Shown: one piece after another, positions 15,281 to 21,200 of the stretch
Position numbering within the stretch: position 1 is the stretch's first letter
How the letters are laid out: each line of letters opens with the position of its first letter
Source: Octopus sinensis
Taxonomy: Eukaryota
Direction: 5' to 3'
Length of the DNA stretch: 21,824 bases
Assembly: GCF_006345805.1 (NCBI RefSeq)
Contig: NW_021823583.1
Coordinates: 1 to 21,824 of the forward strand
Position numbers: made by a program

Positions 15281-18200
15281 TATATATATATATATATATA
15301 TACATATAATTTCAACAATTGAGGGTAAAATTAATTAATTAATTAATCAATTTCACCAAGTATTCAGTATGCAAAGGGACCATTTAAGGCAAATTCAAAT
15401 TATTACATTATATAAAAGGGCTTAGTAAAATAAATTACTTTGCCGCATACTGAACTCGTTAGAAATAGCAGCTAAAAAAAAAAAAAACTATTTCTAACAC
15501 TTAAAGAAAACCTCTCTCATATAGTGCTTGTCAATTCAACCCAAGAAAGTATGAGGGTAGGACATTAAAAAATCAAATGCAAAGGTTATTTGAGTACGTA
15601 CGTTTCAAGATTAGCCAAATTCGACCCTTCTCTCATCAGCTCAGAATGCCCTTGTTTGAGTTTGAAAACACTGAAAATGGGAGCATACCCTTTCGGCTTG
15701 TTATCGCTTCTGAAGATCTGCTCCCAACTAACAGTGCTAGCTAACTCAAATATGCAAGAGAAAGATTTCTGTTCTCCCCTTTCCACCAGCGTGGGTTAAA
15801 ATCAGCAAACACTACGCTTTTTTTCGGTAAAATCCAGACAATTAAGTAGAGAGAGATGAATTATAATTTCAACAATTGAGGGTAAAATAATTAATTAATT
15901 AATCAATTTCACCAAGTATTCAGTATGCAAAGGACCATTTAAGGCAAATTCAAATTATACATTATATAAAAGGGCTTAGTAAAATAAATTACTTTGCCGC
16001 ATACTGAACTCGTTAGAAATAGCAGCTAAAAAAAAAAAAAACTATTTCTAACACTTAAAGAAAACCTCTCTCATATAGTGCTTGCTCAATTCAACCAAGA
16101 AAGTATGAGGGTGAGAGGTAAGACATTAAAAAATCAATGCAAAGGTTATTTGAGTACGTACGTTTCAAGATTAGCCAAATTCGACACTTCTCTCATCAGC
16201 TCAGAATGCCCTGTTTGAGTTTGAAAAAACTGAAAATGGGAGCAACCCTTTCGGCTTTTATCGCTTCTGAAGATGCTCCCAACTAACAGTGCTAGCTAAC
16301 TCAAATATGCAAGAGAAAGATTTCTGTTCTCCCCTTTCCACCAGCGTGGGTTAAAATCAGCAAACACTACGCTTTTTTTCGGTAAAATCCAAGACAATTA
16401 AGTAGAGAGAGATGAATTATAATTTCAACAATTGAGGGTAAAATTAATTAATTAATTAATCAATTTCACCAAGTATTCAGTATGCAAAGGGACCATTTAA
16501 GGCAAATTCAAATTATTACATTATATAAAAGGGCTTAGTAAAATAAATTACTTTGCCGCATACTGAACTCGTTAGAAATAGCAGCTAAAAAAAAAACTAT
16601 TTCTAACACTTAAAGAAAACCTCTCTCATATAGTGCTTGCTCAATTCAACCCAAGAAAGTATGAGGGTAGAGACATTAAAAAATCAAATGCAAAGGTTAT
16701 TTGAGTACGTACGTTTCAAGATTAGCCAAATTCGACCCTTCTCTCATCAGCTCAGAATGCCCTTGTTTGAGTTTGAAAACACTGAAAATGGGAGCATACC
16801 CTTTCGGCTTGTTATCGCTTCTGAAGATCTGCTCCCAACTAACAGTGCTAGCTAACTCAAATATGCAAGAGAAAGATTTCTGTTCTCCCCTTCCACCAGC
16901 GTGGGTTAAAATCAGCAACACTACGCTTTTTTTCGGTAAAATCCAAGACAATTAAGTAGAGAGAGATGAATTATAATTTCAACAATTGAGGGTAAAATTA
17001 ATTAATTAATTAATCAATTTCACCAAGTATTCAGTATGTAAAGGGACCATTTAAGGCAAATTCAAATTATTACATTATATAAAAGGGCTTAGTAAAATAA
17101 ATTTCTTTGCCGCATACTGAACTCGTTAGAAATAGCGCTAAAAAAAACTATTTTTTTAGCTGCTATTTCTAACGAGTCAGTATGCGGCAAAGTAATTTAT
17201 TTTACTAAGCCTTTTATATAATGTAATAATTTGAATTTGCCTTAAATGGTCCCTTTGCATACTGAATACTTGGTGAAATTGATTAATTAATTAATTAATT
17301 TTACCCTCAATTGTTGAAATTATAATTCATCTCTCTCTACTTAATTGTCTTGGATTTTACCGAAAAAAAGCGTAGTGTTTGCTGATTTTAACCACGCTGG
17401 TGGAAAGGGGAGACAGAAATCTTTCTCTTGCATATTTGAGTTAGCTAGCACTGTTAGTTGGGAGCAGATCTTCAGAAGCGATAACAAGCCGAAAGGGTAT
17501 GCTCCCATTTTCAGTGTTTTCAAACTCAAACAAGGGCATTCTGAGCTGATGAGAGAAGGGTCGAATTTGGCTAATCTTGAAACGTAGTACTCAAATAACC
17601 TTTGCATTTGATTTTTTAATGTCTCTACCCTCATACTTTCTTGGGTTGAATTGAGCAAGCACTATATGAGAGAGGTTTTCTTAAGTGTTAGAAATAGTTT
17701 TTTTTAGCTGCTATTTCTAACGAGTTCAGTATGCGGCAAAGTAATTTATTTTACTAAGCCCTTTTATATAATGTAATAATTTGAATTTGCCTTAATGGTC
17801 CCTTTGCATACTGAATACTTGGTGAAATTGATTAATTAATTAATTAATTTTACCCTCAATTGTTGAAATTATAATTCATCTCTCTCTACTTATTGTCTTG
17901 GATTTTACCGAAAAAAAGCGTAGTGTTTGCTGATTTTAACCCACGCTGGTGAAAGGGAGAACAGAAATCTTTCTCTTGCATATTTGAGTTAGCTAGCACT
18001 GTTAGTTGGAGCAGATCTTCAGAAGCGATAACAAGCCGAAGGGTATGCTCCCATTTTCAGTGTTTTCAAACTCAAACAAGGGCATTCTGAGCTGATGAGA
18101 GAAGGGTCGAATTTGGCTAATCTTGAAACGTACGTACTCAAATAACCTTTGCATTTGATTTTTAATGTCTCTACCCTCATACTTTCTTGGGTTGAATTGA

Positions 18201-21200
18201 GCAAGCACTATATGAGAGAGGTTTTCTTTAAGTGTTAGAAATAGTTTTTTTTAGCTGCTATTTCTAACGAGTTCAGTATGCGGCAAAGTAATTTATTTTA
18301 CTAAGCCCTTTTATATAATGTAATAATTTGAATTTGCCTTAAATGGTCCCTTTGCATACTGAATACTTGGTGAAATTGATTAATTAATTAATTAATTTTA
18401 CCCTCAATTGTTGAAATTATAATTCATCTCTCTCTACTTAATTGTCTTGGATTTTACCGAAAAAAAGGCGTAGTGTTTGCTGATTTTACCCACGCTGGTG
18501 GAAAGGGGAGAACAGAAATCTTTCTCTTGCATATTTGAGTTAGCTAGCACTGTTAGTTGGGAGCAGATCTTCAGAAGCGATAACAAGCCGAAAGGGTATG
18601 CTCCCATTTTCATGTTTTCAAACTCAAACAAGGGCATTCTGAGCTGATGAGAGAAGGGTCGAATTTGGCTAATCTTGAACGTACGTACTCAAATAACCTT
18701 TGCATTTGATTTTTTAATGTCTCTACCCTCATACTTTCTTGGGTTGAATTGAGAAGCACTATATGAGAGAGGTTTTCTTTAAGTGTTAGAATAGTTTTTT
18801 TTAGCTGCTATTTCTAACGAGTTCAGTATGCGGCAAAGTAATTTATTTTACTAGCCCTTTTATTAATGTAATAATTTGAATTTGCCTAAATGGTCCCTTT
18901 GCATACTGAATACTTGGTGAAATTGATTATTAAATTAATTAATTTTACCCTCAATTGTTGAATTATAATTCATCTCTCTCTACTTATTGTCTTGGATTTT
19001 ACCGAAAAAAAGCGTAGTGTTTGCTGATTTTAACCCACGCTGGTGGAAAGGGGAGAACAGAAATCTTTCTCTTGCATATTTGAGTTAGCTAGCACTGTTA
19101 GTTGGGAGCAGATCTTCAGAAGCGATAACAAGCCGAAAGGGTATGCTCCCATTTTCAGTGTTTTCAAACTCAAACAAGGGCATTCTGAGCTGATGAGAGA
19201 AGGGTCGAATTTGGCTAATCTTGAAACGTACGTACTCAAATAACCTTTGCATTTGATTTTTTAATGTCTCTACCCTCATACTTTCTTGGGTTGAATTGAG
19301 CAAGCACTATATGAGAGAGGTTTTCTTTAAGTGTTAGAAATAGTTTTTTTTAGCTGCTATTTCTAACGAGTTCAGTATGCGGCAAAGTAATTTATTTTAC
19401 TAAGCCCTTTTATATAATATATATACATATATATATACATGTATACATACATATATGTACCTGTTTTAGAACACAAAGAAACAAATGGTATTTGTACGTT
19501 GCCAAAAATTTTAATTGACTATATAGTTAATTTAATTTAATCTAATTTAATTAACCCAACTTAAATCAAATAAATTGCTAATACTTCCTAATTCTATTAT
19601 AAGTTTAATAAGTAATGCTACTCCCTTAATAATAATATAAGGAATTTTCACTATGATTTTCACTATATTTTGAATAAAAAAATACTCTCACACCTTTTAC
19701 TATAGAAATTAATTGACCTCTAGGTATAGACCTAAAGTCTGTCTTAAAATGTATAAATATTTGTATAAATAGTAACAATAATAAATAAATAAATAACCTC
19801 CTGTTCTAGTATTGCACTTAAATCTCTTAATGTATTTTCCTCTTTGACCCCTTTGATACTTTTTTTGTTCTCTTTATATTCTTTTACCTGCTTTAAACTC
19901 TGTAGGAGTGGTAGTTAACAGTTGTATGATGGTCAAAAGTAATGTTCTCTTCTATAAATCTCAGATTCCTGCAACTCTGACCTAAATTTTCTGTCACCAC
20001 ACAAATAAACTAATCTTTGTAAGTTGTGTACTTACACCCCTCCCTCCCTTTTGTCCCATAATGCCCTTATTTGGTTGGTTTCTGCTTCACTGACTCCTTT
20101 TAGCCAATATAGTCAATCTCTTCTTCCAACATAGTAGTTTTGTGAAATGAACAGAAGTGTGATCAGTATCTTCTCATATATCAGGAAATTACATCTACAT
20201 TATTATGGATAAATTCATCGTCTCTGAGTATGAAATATCTCCTCATATCTCCGGAAAGTACACCTGCATTATTATGGATAGATTTACCTTTTCTGTGAAG
20301 CTAACAAACTTTTTTTAAAACCTTTTATAAAACTGTGCATCATTAGAGAACTTTTGAAGTCTGCTTACAATCTAACTTTGCTTTTTATAGAACTCTCTTC
20401 GATACTTCATGAGTGTAGCCTCACCCCCTAGGATGTTTGGAAAACTCATATGTGTTTTGGCTGATGAATACGGGACACTTATATTTGCAGTTTTTAATAA
20501 AGCTGTTCTTCGTATGAAACAATTGTCCTGAACAACTAATCCATTCTTGTTGCTTTTTTCTTGTTTATAATCACCCCACATTATTTTATGGTTAATACCA
20601 TATAGATTTCTGGTGCATCTAAGTTAAGTACCGCATTCATGTAATTCATTGGAACTCACTTGAATCTTAATTGTTTTTTACTGAAAATATATATACATAT
20701 ATATATAATATATATATATATATTATTATATATATATATATATATAATATATATATATATACAATATATATAGCATGTGTGATGGATGTATGTACGTATG
20801 TATGTATGCATGTATATATGGATAGATGGATGGATGGATGGATGAGTGGATGGATGCCTAAATATACACAGATATATATACTGTTGACGTGATAAGACTA
20901 TAAACTTCCAGGAAGGCGTAAAATAATTCCTTTTTGTAAGAATGCATTTCGAAGCATATAACGCTATAAATAACAGTATGGAAATTTGATTTCAAAGACT
21001 GTCCTCTTTACGCCGAAATGGATTATATAAAAAAATCAATACAAGCATTCTGTTATTTATAGCATTATGTGCTTCGAGATCCAATTGAATTTGGATGTAG
21101 GGGATTCATAGGAAACAGTGCGATTTCAATGGTTGCCGTCGCTAGCTCTAACTCACCGCAAAACAAATGCCATCCTGTGTGATATCCAGGCTAGAGTGGA

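What the first reader, a model, noticed from the sequence alone, without database searches (positions are those of the whole stretch)
15305..19418. 4.1-kb head-to-head array of 550-bp non-coding units, each with a hammerhead ribozyme: candidate cephalopod retrozyme / circular-RNA system
Seen: about 3.3 units on one strand and about 4.1 on the other, with seven HHR copies (CUGAUGA, stem II, GAAAC-GUAC-GUA, stem I), no credible ORF, and (TA)n on both sides. Known: PLE pseudo-LTRs and metazoan non-LTR retrozymes carry type I HHRs with a palindromic minimal helix III that is proposed to work as a dimer, and tandem HHR units self-cleave to monomers that can circularise. Inference: this is a young non-autonomous element whose multimeric cDNA came from rolling-circle or multimer reverse transcription by a PLE RT. 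I cannot tell whether this family has been described.
Basis: partly seen in the sequence, partly recalled or inferred. Interest (0 to 1): 0.9.

Follow-up and report, generated by a model that had tools for sequence, protein, structure and literature searches.

The report
Head-to-head hammerhead-ribozyme repeat array
A 4.1-kb block of seven near-identical 550-bp non-coding repeats, each carrying a hammerhead-ribozyme-like motif and arranged as two arms facing each other inside a (TA)n microsatellite, looks like a young copy of an already known class of ribozyme-bearing mobile repeats (animal "retrozymes").

Summary
Positions 15305-19418 hold 3.3 units (ribozyme strand = minus) joined 5'-to-5' to 4.1 units (ribozyme strand = plus). 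Units are 547-560 bp, about 98% alike, contain no Pfam-recognisable ORF, and have (TA)n on both sides. Each of the 7 units has a type-I hammerhead-like motif: CUGAUGA, helix II, GAAA, the palindrome ACGUACGU, then a GUA cleavage site. Six of 7 pass my descriptor, which hit 1 of 300 shuffled windows. Rfam's hammerhead models did not detect it in four searches, the 10.1-11.1 pair is G·U rather than G-C, and covariation could not be tested. The arrangement matches what is published for Penelope-like element (PLE) insertions: both copies 5'-truncated, an inverted copy at the 5' end, and a (TA)n target. Both 3' ends fall on the only two TATAAT sites in the unit. A second, unrelated 358-bp array (6326-7566) has the same layout. 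A third hammerhead candidate lies at 20455-20533 (Rfam RF00163, 17.2 bits, below threshold). Best reading: a young non-LTR retrozyme-type array. Not shown here: the source taxon, RNA expression, self-cleavage, circular RNA, or any nearby PLE reverse transcriptase. This is a new member of a known kind, of moderate interest.

The parts
15305..17150 (-). Left arm: 3.3 repeat units with the ribozyme (sense) strand on minus. The sense 5' end is at the centre (17150). The sense 3' end is at 15305, abutting (TA)n.
17151..19418 (+). Right arm: 4.1 repeat units with the sense strand on plus. The sense 5' end is at the centre (17151). The sense 3' end is at 19418, abutting (TA)n.
15595..15639 (-). Hammerhead-like motif from CUGAUGA to the GUA cleavage site, identical to the majority sequence. 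Predicted cut between 15595 and 15594.
16155..16199 (-). Hammerhead-like motif with one G>T change in the inner part of helix II.
16706..16750 (-). Hammerhead-like motif, identical to the majority sequence.
17546..17589 (+). Hammerhead-like motif lacking one C in the helix III palindrome (ACGUAGU).
18092..18136 (+). Hammerhead-like motif, identical to the majority sequence. GUA is at 18134-18136 and the predicted cut is after 18136. Helix I continues upstream to about 18079 and downstream to about 18152.
18644..18687 (+). Hammerhead-like motif with GAA in place of the conserved GAAA. It fails the descriptor. The missing base may be an assembly indel.
19190..19234 (+). Hammerhead-like motif, identical to the majority sequence.
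17125..17173 (.). Centre of the head-to-head junction, reading GTTAGAAATAG-CGCT-A8-CTA | T7-AGCTG-CTATTTCTAAC. Both arms are 5'-truncated within about 6 nt of each other, in the loop of an 11-bp hairpin that every unit carries. They overlap by a 3-nt A/T microhomology.
   Evidence: read directly from the sequence
15305..15310 (-). 3' end of the left arm, lying on one of the only two TATAAT hexamers in the unit.
19413..19418 (+). 3' end of the right arm, lying on the other TATAAT hexamer in the unit.
14977..15304 (.). Left-flank compound (TA)n/(CTAT)n microsatellite. Its last 9 nt (15296-15304) are repeated at 19419-19427, a weak candidate for a target-site duplication.
19419..19456 (.). Right-flank (TA)n-type microsatellite (period-12 ATATATATACAT variant).

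Best explanation
This is a young insertion of a non-autonomous, non-coding retroelement of the metazoan non-LTR retrozyme type, closely allied to the hammerhead-bearing pseudo-LTRs of Penelope-like elements.

Shown by the sequence:
- Seven units of about 551 nt, 35% G+C, with no recognisable ORF.
- Each unit has a type-I hammerhead-like domain. Helix I has 4+3+4 bp with a bulge and an internal loop. The core is CUGAUGA. Helix II has 4+5 bp with an internal loop. GAAA follows, then a helix III that exists only as the self-complementary octamer ACGUACGU, then a GUA cleavage triplet.
- The two arms meet 5'-to-5'.
- Both arm 3' ends abut (TA)n at the only two TATAAT sites in the unit.

Inferred mechanism:
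1. Multimeric sense transcripts fold so that the helix III octamers of two neighbouring ribozymes pair with each other, forming a dimeric hammerhead.
2. [quoted passage not shown]
3. A host tRNA-type ligase circularises the monomers into a highly base-paired circular RNA.
4. A reverse transcriptase/endonuclease supplied in trans nicks a (TA)n tract. It is most likely from a PLE, because PLEs target (TA)n and produce tandem plus inverted 5'-truncated copies.
5. The TA-rich DNA 3' end anneals to a UAUAAU site on the circular or multimeric RNA, and rolling synthesis gives a multi-unit cDNA.
6. A second priming event on the other target strand at the other UAUAAU site gives the inverted arm.
7. 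The two 5'-truncated cDNAs are joined at a 3-nt A/T microhomology in the hairpin loop.

Hammerhead motif:
- The full core sequence is present in 6 of 7 copies.
- A descriptor requiring core, three helices and a non-G at position 17 hits 6 array copies and 1 of 300 shuffled windows.
- In circular minimum-free-energy folds of two whole natural units, the ribozyme region forms its own local junction with helices I and II as drawn.
- ACGUACGU cannot form a hairpin on its own (0 kcal/mol) but forms an 8-bp self-duplex (-9.8 kcal/mol). This matches the published dimer model for metazoan type-I and PLE hammerheads (PMC4209133 passages; PMC7229834 passages).

RNA-level structure:
- The sense circle folds at -150.5 kcal/mol against -118.0 +/- 5.6 for 60 shuffles (z -5.8, 0 of 60 as stable).
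- The antisense circle gives z -3.5.

Class features (PMC7229834, sections 14 and 17 and passages):
- Tandem repeats, G+C below 50% (34.8% here), no LTR.
- Circular RNAs predicted to be highly self-paired with the hammerhead free to fold.

Integration signature:
- PMC8557442 (passages) lists 5' truncation, partial tandems, an inverted 5'-truncated copy adjacent at the 5' end, and (TA)n insertion bias as PLE hallmarks. All four are seen here.
- TATAAT occurs exactly twice in the unit, and the two arm ends fall on those two sites.
- Neither arm ends at the cleavage site, which argues for an internally primed circular or multimeric template.

Independent replicates in the same window:
- The unrelated 358-bp array at 6326-7566 also has two 5'-5' arms between (TA)n tracts. 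Both of its 3' ends lie on the only two CTATTAT sites of its unit.
- A third hammerhead candidate at 20455-20533 was found by the descriptor without prior knowledge. It is the top Rfam match in its slice (RF00163, 17.2 bits, E=0.079).

Age relative to the flanks:
- The arms are up to 100% complementary over 304 nt, while the flanking inverted blocks are only 75.6% alike. The array is therefore much younger than its surroundings.
Against: - Rfam Hammerhead_1 and the other hammerhead models gave no match to the array, either at gathering score or at E<=10 in three narrower searches.
- The 10.1-11.1 pair is G·U. PMC4209133 (passage) calls G10.1-C11.1 highly conserved.
- The 93-nt ribozyme region is no more stable than shuffles (z -0.29).
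- Three of 7 copies carry a change inside the motif.
- The motif columns are not significantly better conserved than the rest of the unit (p=0.14).
- No diverged copies were available, so covariation is untested.
- My descriptor thresholds were set after seeing the motif. A rate of 1 hit per 300 shuffled windows would still give hundreds of chance hits in a genome of gigabases.
- The unit length (547-560 nt) lies above the 170-400 nt stated for animal retrozymes.
- Among 26 ORFs scanned there is no PLE RT or GIY-YIG. The only RT is a fragment I read as LINE-type.
- Twin priming by a LINE enzyme (recalled from the L1 literature) would give the same 5'-5' geometry.
- The flanking direct repeat is weak evidence. 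The same 11-mer occurs 14 times on the plus strand of the window.
- Differences among units are mostly 1-nt deletions, 29 of 39 of them in homopolymers. This looks like long-read noise and raises the possibility of a mis-assembled junction.
- Transcription, cleavage and circles are not shown.
Confidence: 0.6

Rival explanations
1. Ordinary minisatellite or satellite DNA. The hammerhead-like motif is inactive: either a decayed relic or a chance look-alike. The array grew by DNA-level processes such as unequal crossing-over or replication slippage. The inversion arose by DNA fold-back or template switching at the unit's short inverted repeat.
For: - Rfam gave no match in four searches.
- The 10.1-11.1 pair is G·U (read from the sequence).
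- The ribozyme region has no thermodynamic excess.
- The motif is not significantly better conserved than the rest of the unit.
- The inversion centre lies in the loop of an 11-bp hairpin present in every unit, a classical site for DNA fold-back.
- The 2026 preprint 10.64898/2026.07.22.740005 (Discussion passage) itself invokes local amplification and unequal crossover for such arrays.
Against: - The centre carries the hairpin loop twice in mirror image around CTA. A simple fold-back at the inverted repeat would leave a single loop (sequence).
- Both outer ends are sense-strand 3' ends, located at the two TATAAT sites.
- The same pattern recurs in an unrelated array.
- Two further hammerhead-like motifs with palindromic helix III lie in the same 22 kb.
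- The sense-strand circle is markedly more structured than shuffles (z -5.8).
Confidence: 0.15
2. The tandem array is real, but the head-to-head junction is an assembly artefact, such as a palindromic chimeric long read or a mis-join in a noisy repeat. The true locus would then be a single-orientation array.
For: - Differences between units are dominated by single-base deletions (39 deleted positions, 29 in homopolymers, against 14 substitutions). This is typical of incompletely polished long-read assemblies.
- PMC8557442 (passage) notes that such structures often cause assembly problems.
- The junction is a near-perfect palindrome (I2: 377 nt at 97%, 123 nt apart).
Against: - The arms differ in length (3.3 versus 4.1 units) and end at different unit positions.
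- The flanks are not mirror images at arm-level identity. The only flank similarity is 75.6% over 221 nt, and it is displaced by a 1.2-kb segment on one side.
- U-run lengths differ between arms: 10-14 in three left-arm pieces against 7-8 in all right-arm pieces.
- A second array with the same geometry lies 8 kb away.
- Inverted 5'-truncated copies are a documented biological feature of PLE insertions.
Confidence: 0.1
3. The block is not an independent retrozyme. It would be a tandem array of pseudo-LTR or terminal non-coding sequence from an autonomous PLE whose ORF is absent at this locus, or a retrozyme-type RNA mobilised by a LINE enzyme through twin priming rather than by a PLE.
For: - The hammerhead has PLE-like traits: a long helix II, a short helix I adjacent to the core, and a palindromic helix III (PMC4209133 passages).
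- The preprint 10.64898/2026.07.22.740005 (abstract and passages) derives retrozymes from PLE pLTRs.
- A LINE-type RT fragment lies in the window (5212-6054).
- PMC7229834 (section 17) leaves LINEs open as possible mobilisers.
Against: - The unit has no similarity to the rest of the window, including the 1.2-kb segment that carries the third hammerhead candidate. The best blastn hits are 22 nt or shorter, with E>=0.34.
- There is no poly(A) or LINE-type 3' tail at either arm end.
- The question cannot be settled without the genome.
Confidence: 0.15

Closest known systems
Metazoan non-LTR retrozymes (Cervera & de la Pena 2020, PMC7229834), for example the 350-390-bp repeats of the mussel Mytilus galloprovincialis
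   Same: Both are non-coding, low-G+C tandem repeats with one type-I hammerhead per unit and no LTR. The circular monomer is predicted to be highly self-paired with the ribozyme free to fold. The proposed life cycle is the same: self-cleavage, ligation to a circle, and multimeric cDNA made by an RT supplied in trans.
   Different: The unit is longer here (547-560 nt against 170-400 nt). The hammerhead has a G·U at 10.1-11.1, an internal loop in a long helix II and a GUA site, and it is missed by Rfam. The array is two arms head-to-head rather than a simple tandem. Expression and circles are untested. The source taxon is unknown.
Minimal hammerheads in the pseudo-LTRs of Penelope-like elements, and the PLE insertion architecture (PMC4209133; PMC8557442)
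   Same: Both have a long helix II, a short helix I next to the core, and a palindromic helix III proposed to work only as a dimer. Both show 5' truncation, partial tandems, an inverted 5'-truncated copy at the 5' end, and insertion into (TA)n.
   Different: There is no RT/GIY-YIG ORF here. The repeat is a complete 550-bp unit reiterated 3-4 times per arm, not a pLTR flanking a coding body. [quoted passage not shown]
Classical hammerhead-bearing satellite DNAs: newt satellite 2 (about 330 bp), Schistosoma Sm-alpha, and the Dolichopoda pDo500 family (named in PMC7229834 and PMC7761336; unit sizes other than the newt's are recalled)
   Same: These are tandem units of a few hundred bp transcribed into self-cleaving multimers. 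In the newt, a weak helix III with a palindromic loop requires dimeric ribozymes.
   Different: Those form long satellite arrays with experimentally proven cleavage. This is a short 7-unit interstitial insertion with inverted arms, and cleavage is unproven.
Plant LTR retrozymes (PMC4918200; search listing and abstract only)
   Same: Both are non-autonomous, hammerhead-bounded elements thought to spread through circular RNA.
   Different: The plant elements have type-III hammerheads inside LTRs, PBS and PPT sites, 4-bp target duplications, G+C above 55% and Gypsy-type mobilisation. None of these applies here.

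Membership tests
Hammerhead ribozyme, type I | Conserved core boxes CUGANGA and GAAA in the right order and spacing | tested here: met
   Six of 7 copies have both boxes. The copy at 18644-18687 reads GAA.
Hammerhead ribozyme, type I | Three helices around the core, with helix I open and helices II and III closed (type-I topology), including an A15.1-U16.1 pair | tested here: met
   The descriptor requires helix I >=4 bp, helix II >=4 bp and helix III >=2 bp. 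It hits 6 of 7 copies. Helices I and II appear in the MFE of the 93-nt region and of whole circular units. Helix III exists only as an 8-nt palindrome.
Hammerhead ribozyme, type I | Cleavage triplet NUH (position 17 is not G) | tested here: met
   The triplet is GUA, followed by C (18134-18137). The NUH rule is recalled knowledge.
Hammerhead ribozyme, type I | G10.1-C11.1 base pair closing helix II | tested here: not met
   G10.1 faces U11.1 (GAGA...UCUU). PMC4209133 (passage) describes G10.1-C11.1 as highly conserved.
Hammerhead ribozyme, type I | Match to the curated covariance model (Rfam RF00163, gathering score 34 bits) | tested here: not met
   No match at gathering score or at E<=10 in three narrower searches. 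For comparison, the separate candidate at 20455-20533 scores 17.2 bits.
Hammerhead ribozyme, type I | Compensatory base changes in the helices across diverged copies | not testable with these tools
   All 7 copies are near-identical. No eukaryotic collection was open. An exact-match scan of prokaryotic genome contigs found 0 matches.
Hammerhead ribozyme, type I | Self-cleavage | not testable with these tools
   This needs in vitro transcription of monomeric and dimeric constructs.
Metazoan non-LTR retrozyme | Tandem repeats with a type-I hammerhead in every unit | tested here: met
   Seven of 7 units carry the motif, and 6 of 7 pass the descriptor. The preprint 10.64898/2026.07.22.740005 (Fig. 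1 legend) defines an active element this way.
Metazoan non-LTR retrozyme | Unit size of about 150-450 bp (circles of 170-400 nt) | tested here: inconclusive
   Units are 547-560 bp, which is outside the stated range. However, the Discussion of PMC7229834 speaks of circles from 150 to more than 1000 nt.
Metazoan non-LTR retrozyme | G+C below 45-50%, no LTR, no coding capacity | tested here: met
   G+C is 34.8%. The arms consist only of the same unit. Five of 5 array ORFs have no Pfam match at E<=0.01. PBS and PPT were not searched formally.
Metazoan non-LTR retrozyme | Highly self-paired circular monomer that leaves the hammerhead free to fold | tested here: met
   This is a prediction only: z -5.8 against 60 shuffles, with 57-63% of bases paired. 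The hammerhead is a local domain in 2 of 2 units examined.
Metazoan non-LTR retrozyme | Expression as linear and circular RNA, and co-occurrence with PLEs in the genome | not testable with these tools
   No RNA data and no genome were available. The window itself has no PLE ORF.
Penelope-like element (autonomous) | ORF with a PLE-type RT and a GIY-YIG endonuclease | tested here: not met
   Of 26 ORFs scanned across the window, only RVT_1 at 5212-6054(-) matched. I read that fragment as LINE-type from recalled motifs.
Penelope-like element (insertion signature only) | 5' truncation, partial tandem copies, an inverted 5'-truncated copy adjacent at the 5' end, and a (TA)n target | tested here: met
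   Seen, compared with passages of PMC8557442.

The most novel reading that the evidence does not exclude
The window preserves sequence-level footprints of how ribozyme-bearing circular RNAs are put back into DNA. Two unrelated non-coding repeat families each show two multi-unit arms joined 5'-to-5' inside (TA)n. In each, both 3' ends sit on the only two copies of a TA-rich hexamer or heptamer in the unit (TATAAT in one family, CTATTAT in the other). This would mean twin-primed, microhomology-initiated rolling reverse transcription of a circular template with no defined 3' end, by a (TA)n-specific PLE endonuclease/RT. That would be direct structural evidence for the so-far hypothetical link between non-LTR retrozymes and PLE machinery. 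It would also mean such loci can produce long perfect hairpin RNA if transcribed across the centre.
Probability: 0.3. Interest if true: 0.6.

Novelty: new member of a known kind. Interest (0 to 1): 0.4.

Why it matters
Animal retrozymes are thought to spread through self-cleaved, ligated circular RNAs copied by a borrowed reverse transcriptase. The integration step is only a model: PMC7229834 (section 17) and PMC8557442 both call the mechanism undefined. A very young insertion whose junctions are still readable gives concrete, checkable predictions. The readable features are 3' ends at internal TA-rich sites, 5'-5' joined arms, and a (TA)n target. The predictions can be scored across a genome: where priming starts, whether the template had a free 3' end, and which endonuclease specificity is involved. 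If the source is a cephalopod, it would add a lineage in which hammerheads have only been counted by Rfam annotation (235 Hammerhead_1 loci in the giant squid, PMC6962438 passage). My searches found no paper describing retrozymes there. In one search only the top 10 of 2,742 papers were listed, so that search is not exhaustive. The case also shows that curated hammerhead models can miss retroelement variants.

Tried and rejected
- **Rfam.** The whole window at gathering score and three E<=10 searches on the array gave no hammerhead. The only matches were chance-level snoRNA, miRNA or pseudoknot hits in the AT-rich flank. I keep the hammerhead reading on descriptor and context grounds, but the Rfam result is negative.
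- **Thermodynamics of the 93-nt ribozyme region.** z was -0.29, so there is no support from stability.
- **Cofolding two ribozyme regions.** This returned a trivial fully swapped duplex of two identical strands and says nothing about the dimer model. I used only the 8-nt self-duplex energy. The third row was mis-registered by one base and is not used.
- **Target-site duplication.** A 9-bp flanking direct repeat exists (11 bp if 2 ambiguous bases are counted). However, the 11-mer occurs 14 times on the plus strand, and a 19-mer containing it occurs at 8 places. I downgraded it to weak evidence. I also dropped the idea that this 19-mer is an element 'tail'.
- **Palindromic-read artefact covering the flanks.** Rejected. 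The flank similarity is 75.6% and displaced.
- **Relatedness of the unit to the neighbouring 1.2-kb hammerhead-bearing segment or anything else in the window.** None found.
- **Conservation of motif versus rest of unit.** Not significant. The copies are too alike, and their differences look like sequencing noise.
- **RT fragment against solved structures.** 0 hits. Its LINE assignment rests on recalled motifs (GVPQG...FADD, and a C-terminal SLE..RR motif in the next frame).
- **Prokaryotic genome contigs exact scan with the 48-nt motif.** 0 matches.
- **Tools and collections not used.**
  - Structure prediction, fold search, complex prediction, the protein-atlas search and search_dna_similar were not used, because there is no protein question and those collections are phage, plasmid or E. 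coli.
  - As a result, genome-wide copy number, diverged copies, linkage to a PLE and the source taxon all stayed unchecked.
- **Supplementary files.** These were not consulted. They may list further species or hammerhead variants, for example the supplementary figures of PMC7229834, Supplementary Table 1 of 10.64898/2026.07.22.740005 and file S1 of PMC8557442. They could bear on whether this family or lineage is already recorded.

Full report
**What is there**

Positions 15305-19418 are built from one repeat unit of about 551 nt. I cut the array at the predicted ribozyme cleavage sites. This gives a left arm at 15305-17150 whose ribozyme (sense) strand is minus, in pieces of 445, 551, 560 and 290 nt read from the centre outward. 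It gives a right arm at 17151-19418 whose sense strand is plus, in pieces of 439, 547, 551, 547 and 184 nt. The repeat finder gives spacings of 545-559 bp and inverted arms up to 416 nt at 93-100% complementarity. TRF did not list the array because its longest period is 500. Compound (TA)n microsatellites flank both ends (14977-15308 and 19411-19456). The window contains no N.

**How alike the units are**

Against their majority sequence, the nine pieces show 4079 matches, 39 deleted positions, 21 inserted positions and 14 substitutions. Twenty-nine of the 39 deletions lie in homopolymers. The inserted positions are mostly a longer U-run in the left arm plus one 6-nt insertion. This indel-dominated pattern looks like residual long-read error rather than mutation. 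The 358-bp array elsewhere in the window shows the same kind of single-base differences. The true copies are therefore probably almost identical, meaning a very young or homogenised array. It also means that the single-base defects in two ribozyme copies may not be real.

**The ribozyme-like motif**

- Every unit reads, on the sense strand...AAGG-GC-AUU-C-UGAG / CUGAUGA / GAGA-AG-GGUCG-AAUU-UGGCU-AA-UCUU / GAAA / (A)CGUACG(U) / A, then CUCA-AAU-AA-CCUU....
- This is type-I hammerhead topology. Helix I is open, with 4+3+4 bp, a bulged C and a small internal loop. Helix II has 4+5 bp with a 2x2 internal loop.
- Helix III exists only as the self-complementary octamer ACGUACGU. The cleavage triplet is GUA.
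- Four copies match the majority sequence. One has G>T in helix II, one lacks a C in the palindrome, and one reads GAA for GAAA.
- A descriptor I wrote requires CUGANGA, helix II >=4 bp, GAAA, A15.1-U16.1 plus at least one more pair, a non-G at position 17, and helix I >=4 bp. It finds 6 of the 7 copies and hits 1 of 300 dinucleotide shuffles of the window.
- In circular MFE folds of two whole natural units, the region forms exactly this local junction.
- The octamer cannot fold alone (0 kcal/mol) but self-pairs at -9.8 kcal/mol. This is the architecture for which dimeric action is proposed and, for newt and axolotl motifs, shown (PMC4209133 passages; PMC7229834 passages).

**Evidence against the ribozyme reading**

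- Rfam did not find it, either at gathering score or at E<=10 on 4.3 kb, 101 nt or 64 nt slices.
- The likely reasons are visible in the sequence: U instead of C at 11.1 (a G·U closing pair), A instead of C at position 17, a C·A mismatch in helix I, and a long helix II. These are departures from the consensus, not excuses.
- The 93-nt region is no more stable than shuffles (z -0.29).
- The motif columns carry 6 differences in 616 bases against 68 in 3516 elsewhere (Fisher two-sided p=0.14).
- My descriptor was tuned after seeing the motif, and its false-positive rate would still give many chance hits genome-wide.
- I put the probability that this is a genuine hammerhead-derived motif at about 0.8, and that it cleaves as a dimer at about 0.5-0.6.

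**RNA-level structure of the whole unit**

A natural unit folded as a circle gives -150.5 kcal/mol on the sense strand, against -118.0 +/- 5.6 for 60 shuffles (z -5.8, none as stable). The antisense strand gives -116.4 against -96.7 +/- 5.6 (z -3.5). The sense MFE uses 26 G·U pairs. Both strands are structured, the sense strand more so. This fits the 'highly self-paired' circles described for animal retrozymes (PMC7229834 section 14; PMC7761336 passage).

**The junctions**

- Both arms have their sense 5' ends at the centre and their 3' ends outward.
- The centre (17125-17173) reads GTTAGAAATAG-CGCT-A8-CTA|T7-AGCTG-CTATTTCTAAC. Each unit contains an 11-bp hairpin with a U8-AGCUG loop. Both arms are truncated in or next to that loop, about 6 nt apart in unit coordinates, and they overlap by a 3-nt A/T microhomology.
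- The loop is present twice in mirror image. This is therefore not the product of a simple fold-back on the hairpin stems.
- At the outer ends, the right arm stops after ...UUAUAUAAU and the left arm after ...GAAAUUAUA. TATAAT occurs exactly twice in the 551-nt unit, and these are those two sites.
- Neither end is at the ribozyme cleavage site.
- A 9-bp flanking direct repeat (11 bp with 2 ambiguous bases) is present. It is a common microsatellite variant in this window, so I count it only as weak evidence for a target-site duplication.

**Comparison with what is published**

- PMC8557442 (passages) lists the hallmarks of Penelope-like element insertions. [quoted passage not shown] It adds that this is not seen in LINE target-primed reverse transcription, and that the mechanism is undefined.
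- PMC7229834 (sections 14 and 17) defines non-LTR retrozymes as low-G+C tandem repeats with type-I hammerheads. They are expressed as 170-400-nt circles, lack LTR/PBS/PPT, and are proposed to be copied as tandem cDNAs from a primed circle by a PLE or LINE enzyme.
- The preprint 10.64898/2026.07.22.740005 (abstract, Introduction and passages) argues from phylogeny that they derive from PLE pLTRs.
- The array here meets the retrozyme description except for its larger unit. Its junctions carry the PLE insertion signature.
- It is not itself a PLE. Among 26 ORFs scanned with Pfam, only a truncated RVT_1 at 5212-6054(-) matched. I read that fragment as LINE-type from recalled motifs, supported by the C-terminal frame seen.

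**Independent replicates in the same window**

1. Positions 6326-7290 hold 2.7 units of an unrelated 358-bp repeat, followed by 0.77 unit in inverse orientation (7291-7566). (TA)n lies on both sides.
   - On the strand that makes the arms 5'-5', each unit reads GCUACG / CUGCAU(U)GA-AAA / GGGG-CAAUA-CCCC / GAAA / (A)CGCG(U) / C / UGUAGC. That is a canonical-looking 6-bp helix I, 4-bp helix II, palindromic helix III and GUC site, but with a disrupted 5' core box. Rfam finds nothing there.
   - Both arm 3' ends lie on the only two CTATTAT sites of that unit.
2. At 20455-20533(+), in a 1.2-kb non-coding segment between two (TA)n tracts (19457-20686), my descriptor found an unanticipated hammerhead. 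It has helix I of 5 bp, helix II of 7 bp, the palindrome ACAAUUGU and a GUC site. It is the best Rfam match of its slice: RF00163, 17.2 bits, E=0.079, below the 34-bit gathering score.

Three ribozyme-type elements in (TA)n within 22 kb make a chance origin of the motif much less likely. They also suggest a genome rich in such elements.

**Surroundings**

The left flank 15103-15301 and the region 20687-20902 are inverted, diverged copies of one another: 75.6% over 221 nt, sharing a unique 17-mer. The array and the 1.2-kb segment thus both sit in the (TA)n core of an older inverted structure. The near-identity of the arms shows that the array is far younger than this frame. This also argues against a simple palindromic assembly artefact, although only raw reads can exclude one.

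**Mechanism**

Shown by the sequence:
- the anatomy of the array,
- the motif,
- the predicted folds,
- the junction positions.

Inferred:
- transcription,
- dimeric self-cleavage after GUA,
- ligation to a circle of about 551 nt,
- nicking of (TA)n by an endonuclease/RT acting in trans,
- priming by annealing of the TA-rich DNA end to UAUAAU on a template without a free 3' end,
- rolling synthesis of several units,
- a second priming event on the other strand,
- joining of the two 5'-truncated cDNAs at microhomology.

The choice of a PLE rather than a LINE enzyme rests on literature association only.

**Verdict**

Retrozyme-type and PLE-style integration is the best reading, at confidence 0.6. 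The Rfam test failed, and the taxon, expression and catalysis are untested. The kind is already described, so this is a new member of a known kind. Its main value is that its integration junctions are unusually easy to read.

Noticed in passing
window 20455-20533 (+), within 19457-20686: A third, unrelated type-I hammerhead candidate. It reads CUGAUGA, a 7-bp helix II with a large loop, GAAA, the palindrome ACAAUUGU, a GUC site and a 5-bp helix I. My descriptor found it blind. Rfam RF00163 scores 17.2 bits, E=0.079, below the gathering score of 34. It sits about 150 nt from the 3' end of a 1.2-kb non-coding segment bounded by (TA)n on both sides, which may be a truncated PLE end or a solo element.
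   Followed up: partly
window 6326-7566: A second head-to-head array: 2.7 units of an unrelated 358-bp repeat plus 0.77 unit inverted, with (TA)n on both sides. Its sense strand has a hammerhead-like helix I, helix II, GAAA, palindromic ACGCGU and GUC, but the 5' box reads CUGCAU(U)GA. Rfam finds no match. Both arm 3' ends lie on the only two CTATTAT sites of the unit.
   Followed up: partly
window 15103-15301 and 20687-20902: Diverged inverted copies (75.6% over 221 nt, sharing a unique 17-mer) frame the main array together with the 1.2-kb segment. Each has its (TA)n side facing inward. This may be an older foldback or MITE-like structure whose (TA)n core received the insertions.
   Followed up: partly
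window 5212-6054 (-), with 4821-5219 (-) and 4813-4899: A 5'-truncated reverse-transcriptase fragment (Pfam RVT_1, E=9.9e-14). It is followed by a C-terminal frame and a 43-bp x2 tandem. From recalled motifs it looks like a CR1/Jockey-type LINE, not a PLE. It has no PDB sequence match.
   Followed up: partly
window 14-233, 902-1116, 1134-1252, 1261-1526: Four copies (75-90% identity) of a dispersed repeat of about 120-220 bp, SINE-like in size, clustered at the left end of the window.
   Followed up: no
window 3467-3621 and 8171-8326; 12595-12712 and 12857-12974: Two further inverted repeat pairs: 77.6% over 156 nt about 4.5 kb apart, and 90% over 118 nt with a 144-nt spacer. The second is MITE-like in size.
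   Followed up: no
whole window, e.g. 4342, 6244, 7565, 12490, 12502, 19419, 20689 (+), 6271 (-): The 19-mer ATATATACATATATATATA recurs at 8 places, including directly at the right-hand junction of all three hammerhead-type elements. It may be just the common period-12 microsatellite variant of this genome, or it may hint at a preferred cleavage context. This is unresolved.
   Followed up: partly
arrays 15305-19418 and 6326-7566: Copies differ mainly by single-base deletions, mostly in homopolymers. This suggests an incompletely polished long-read assembly. Single-base 'defects' in repeats of this window should not be over-read.
   Followed up: partly
window 21643-21764: A long (CTT)n tract (41 copies) lies near the right end of the window, preceded by a region of higher G+C and low repeat content (about 20900-21600) that I did not characterise.
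   Followed up: no
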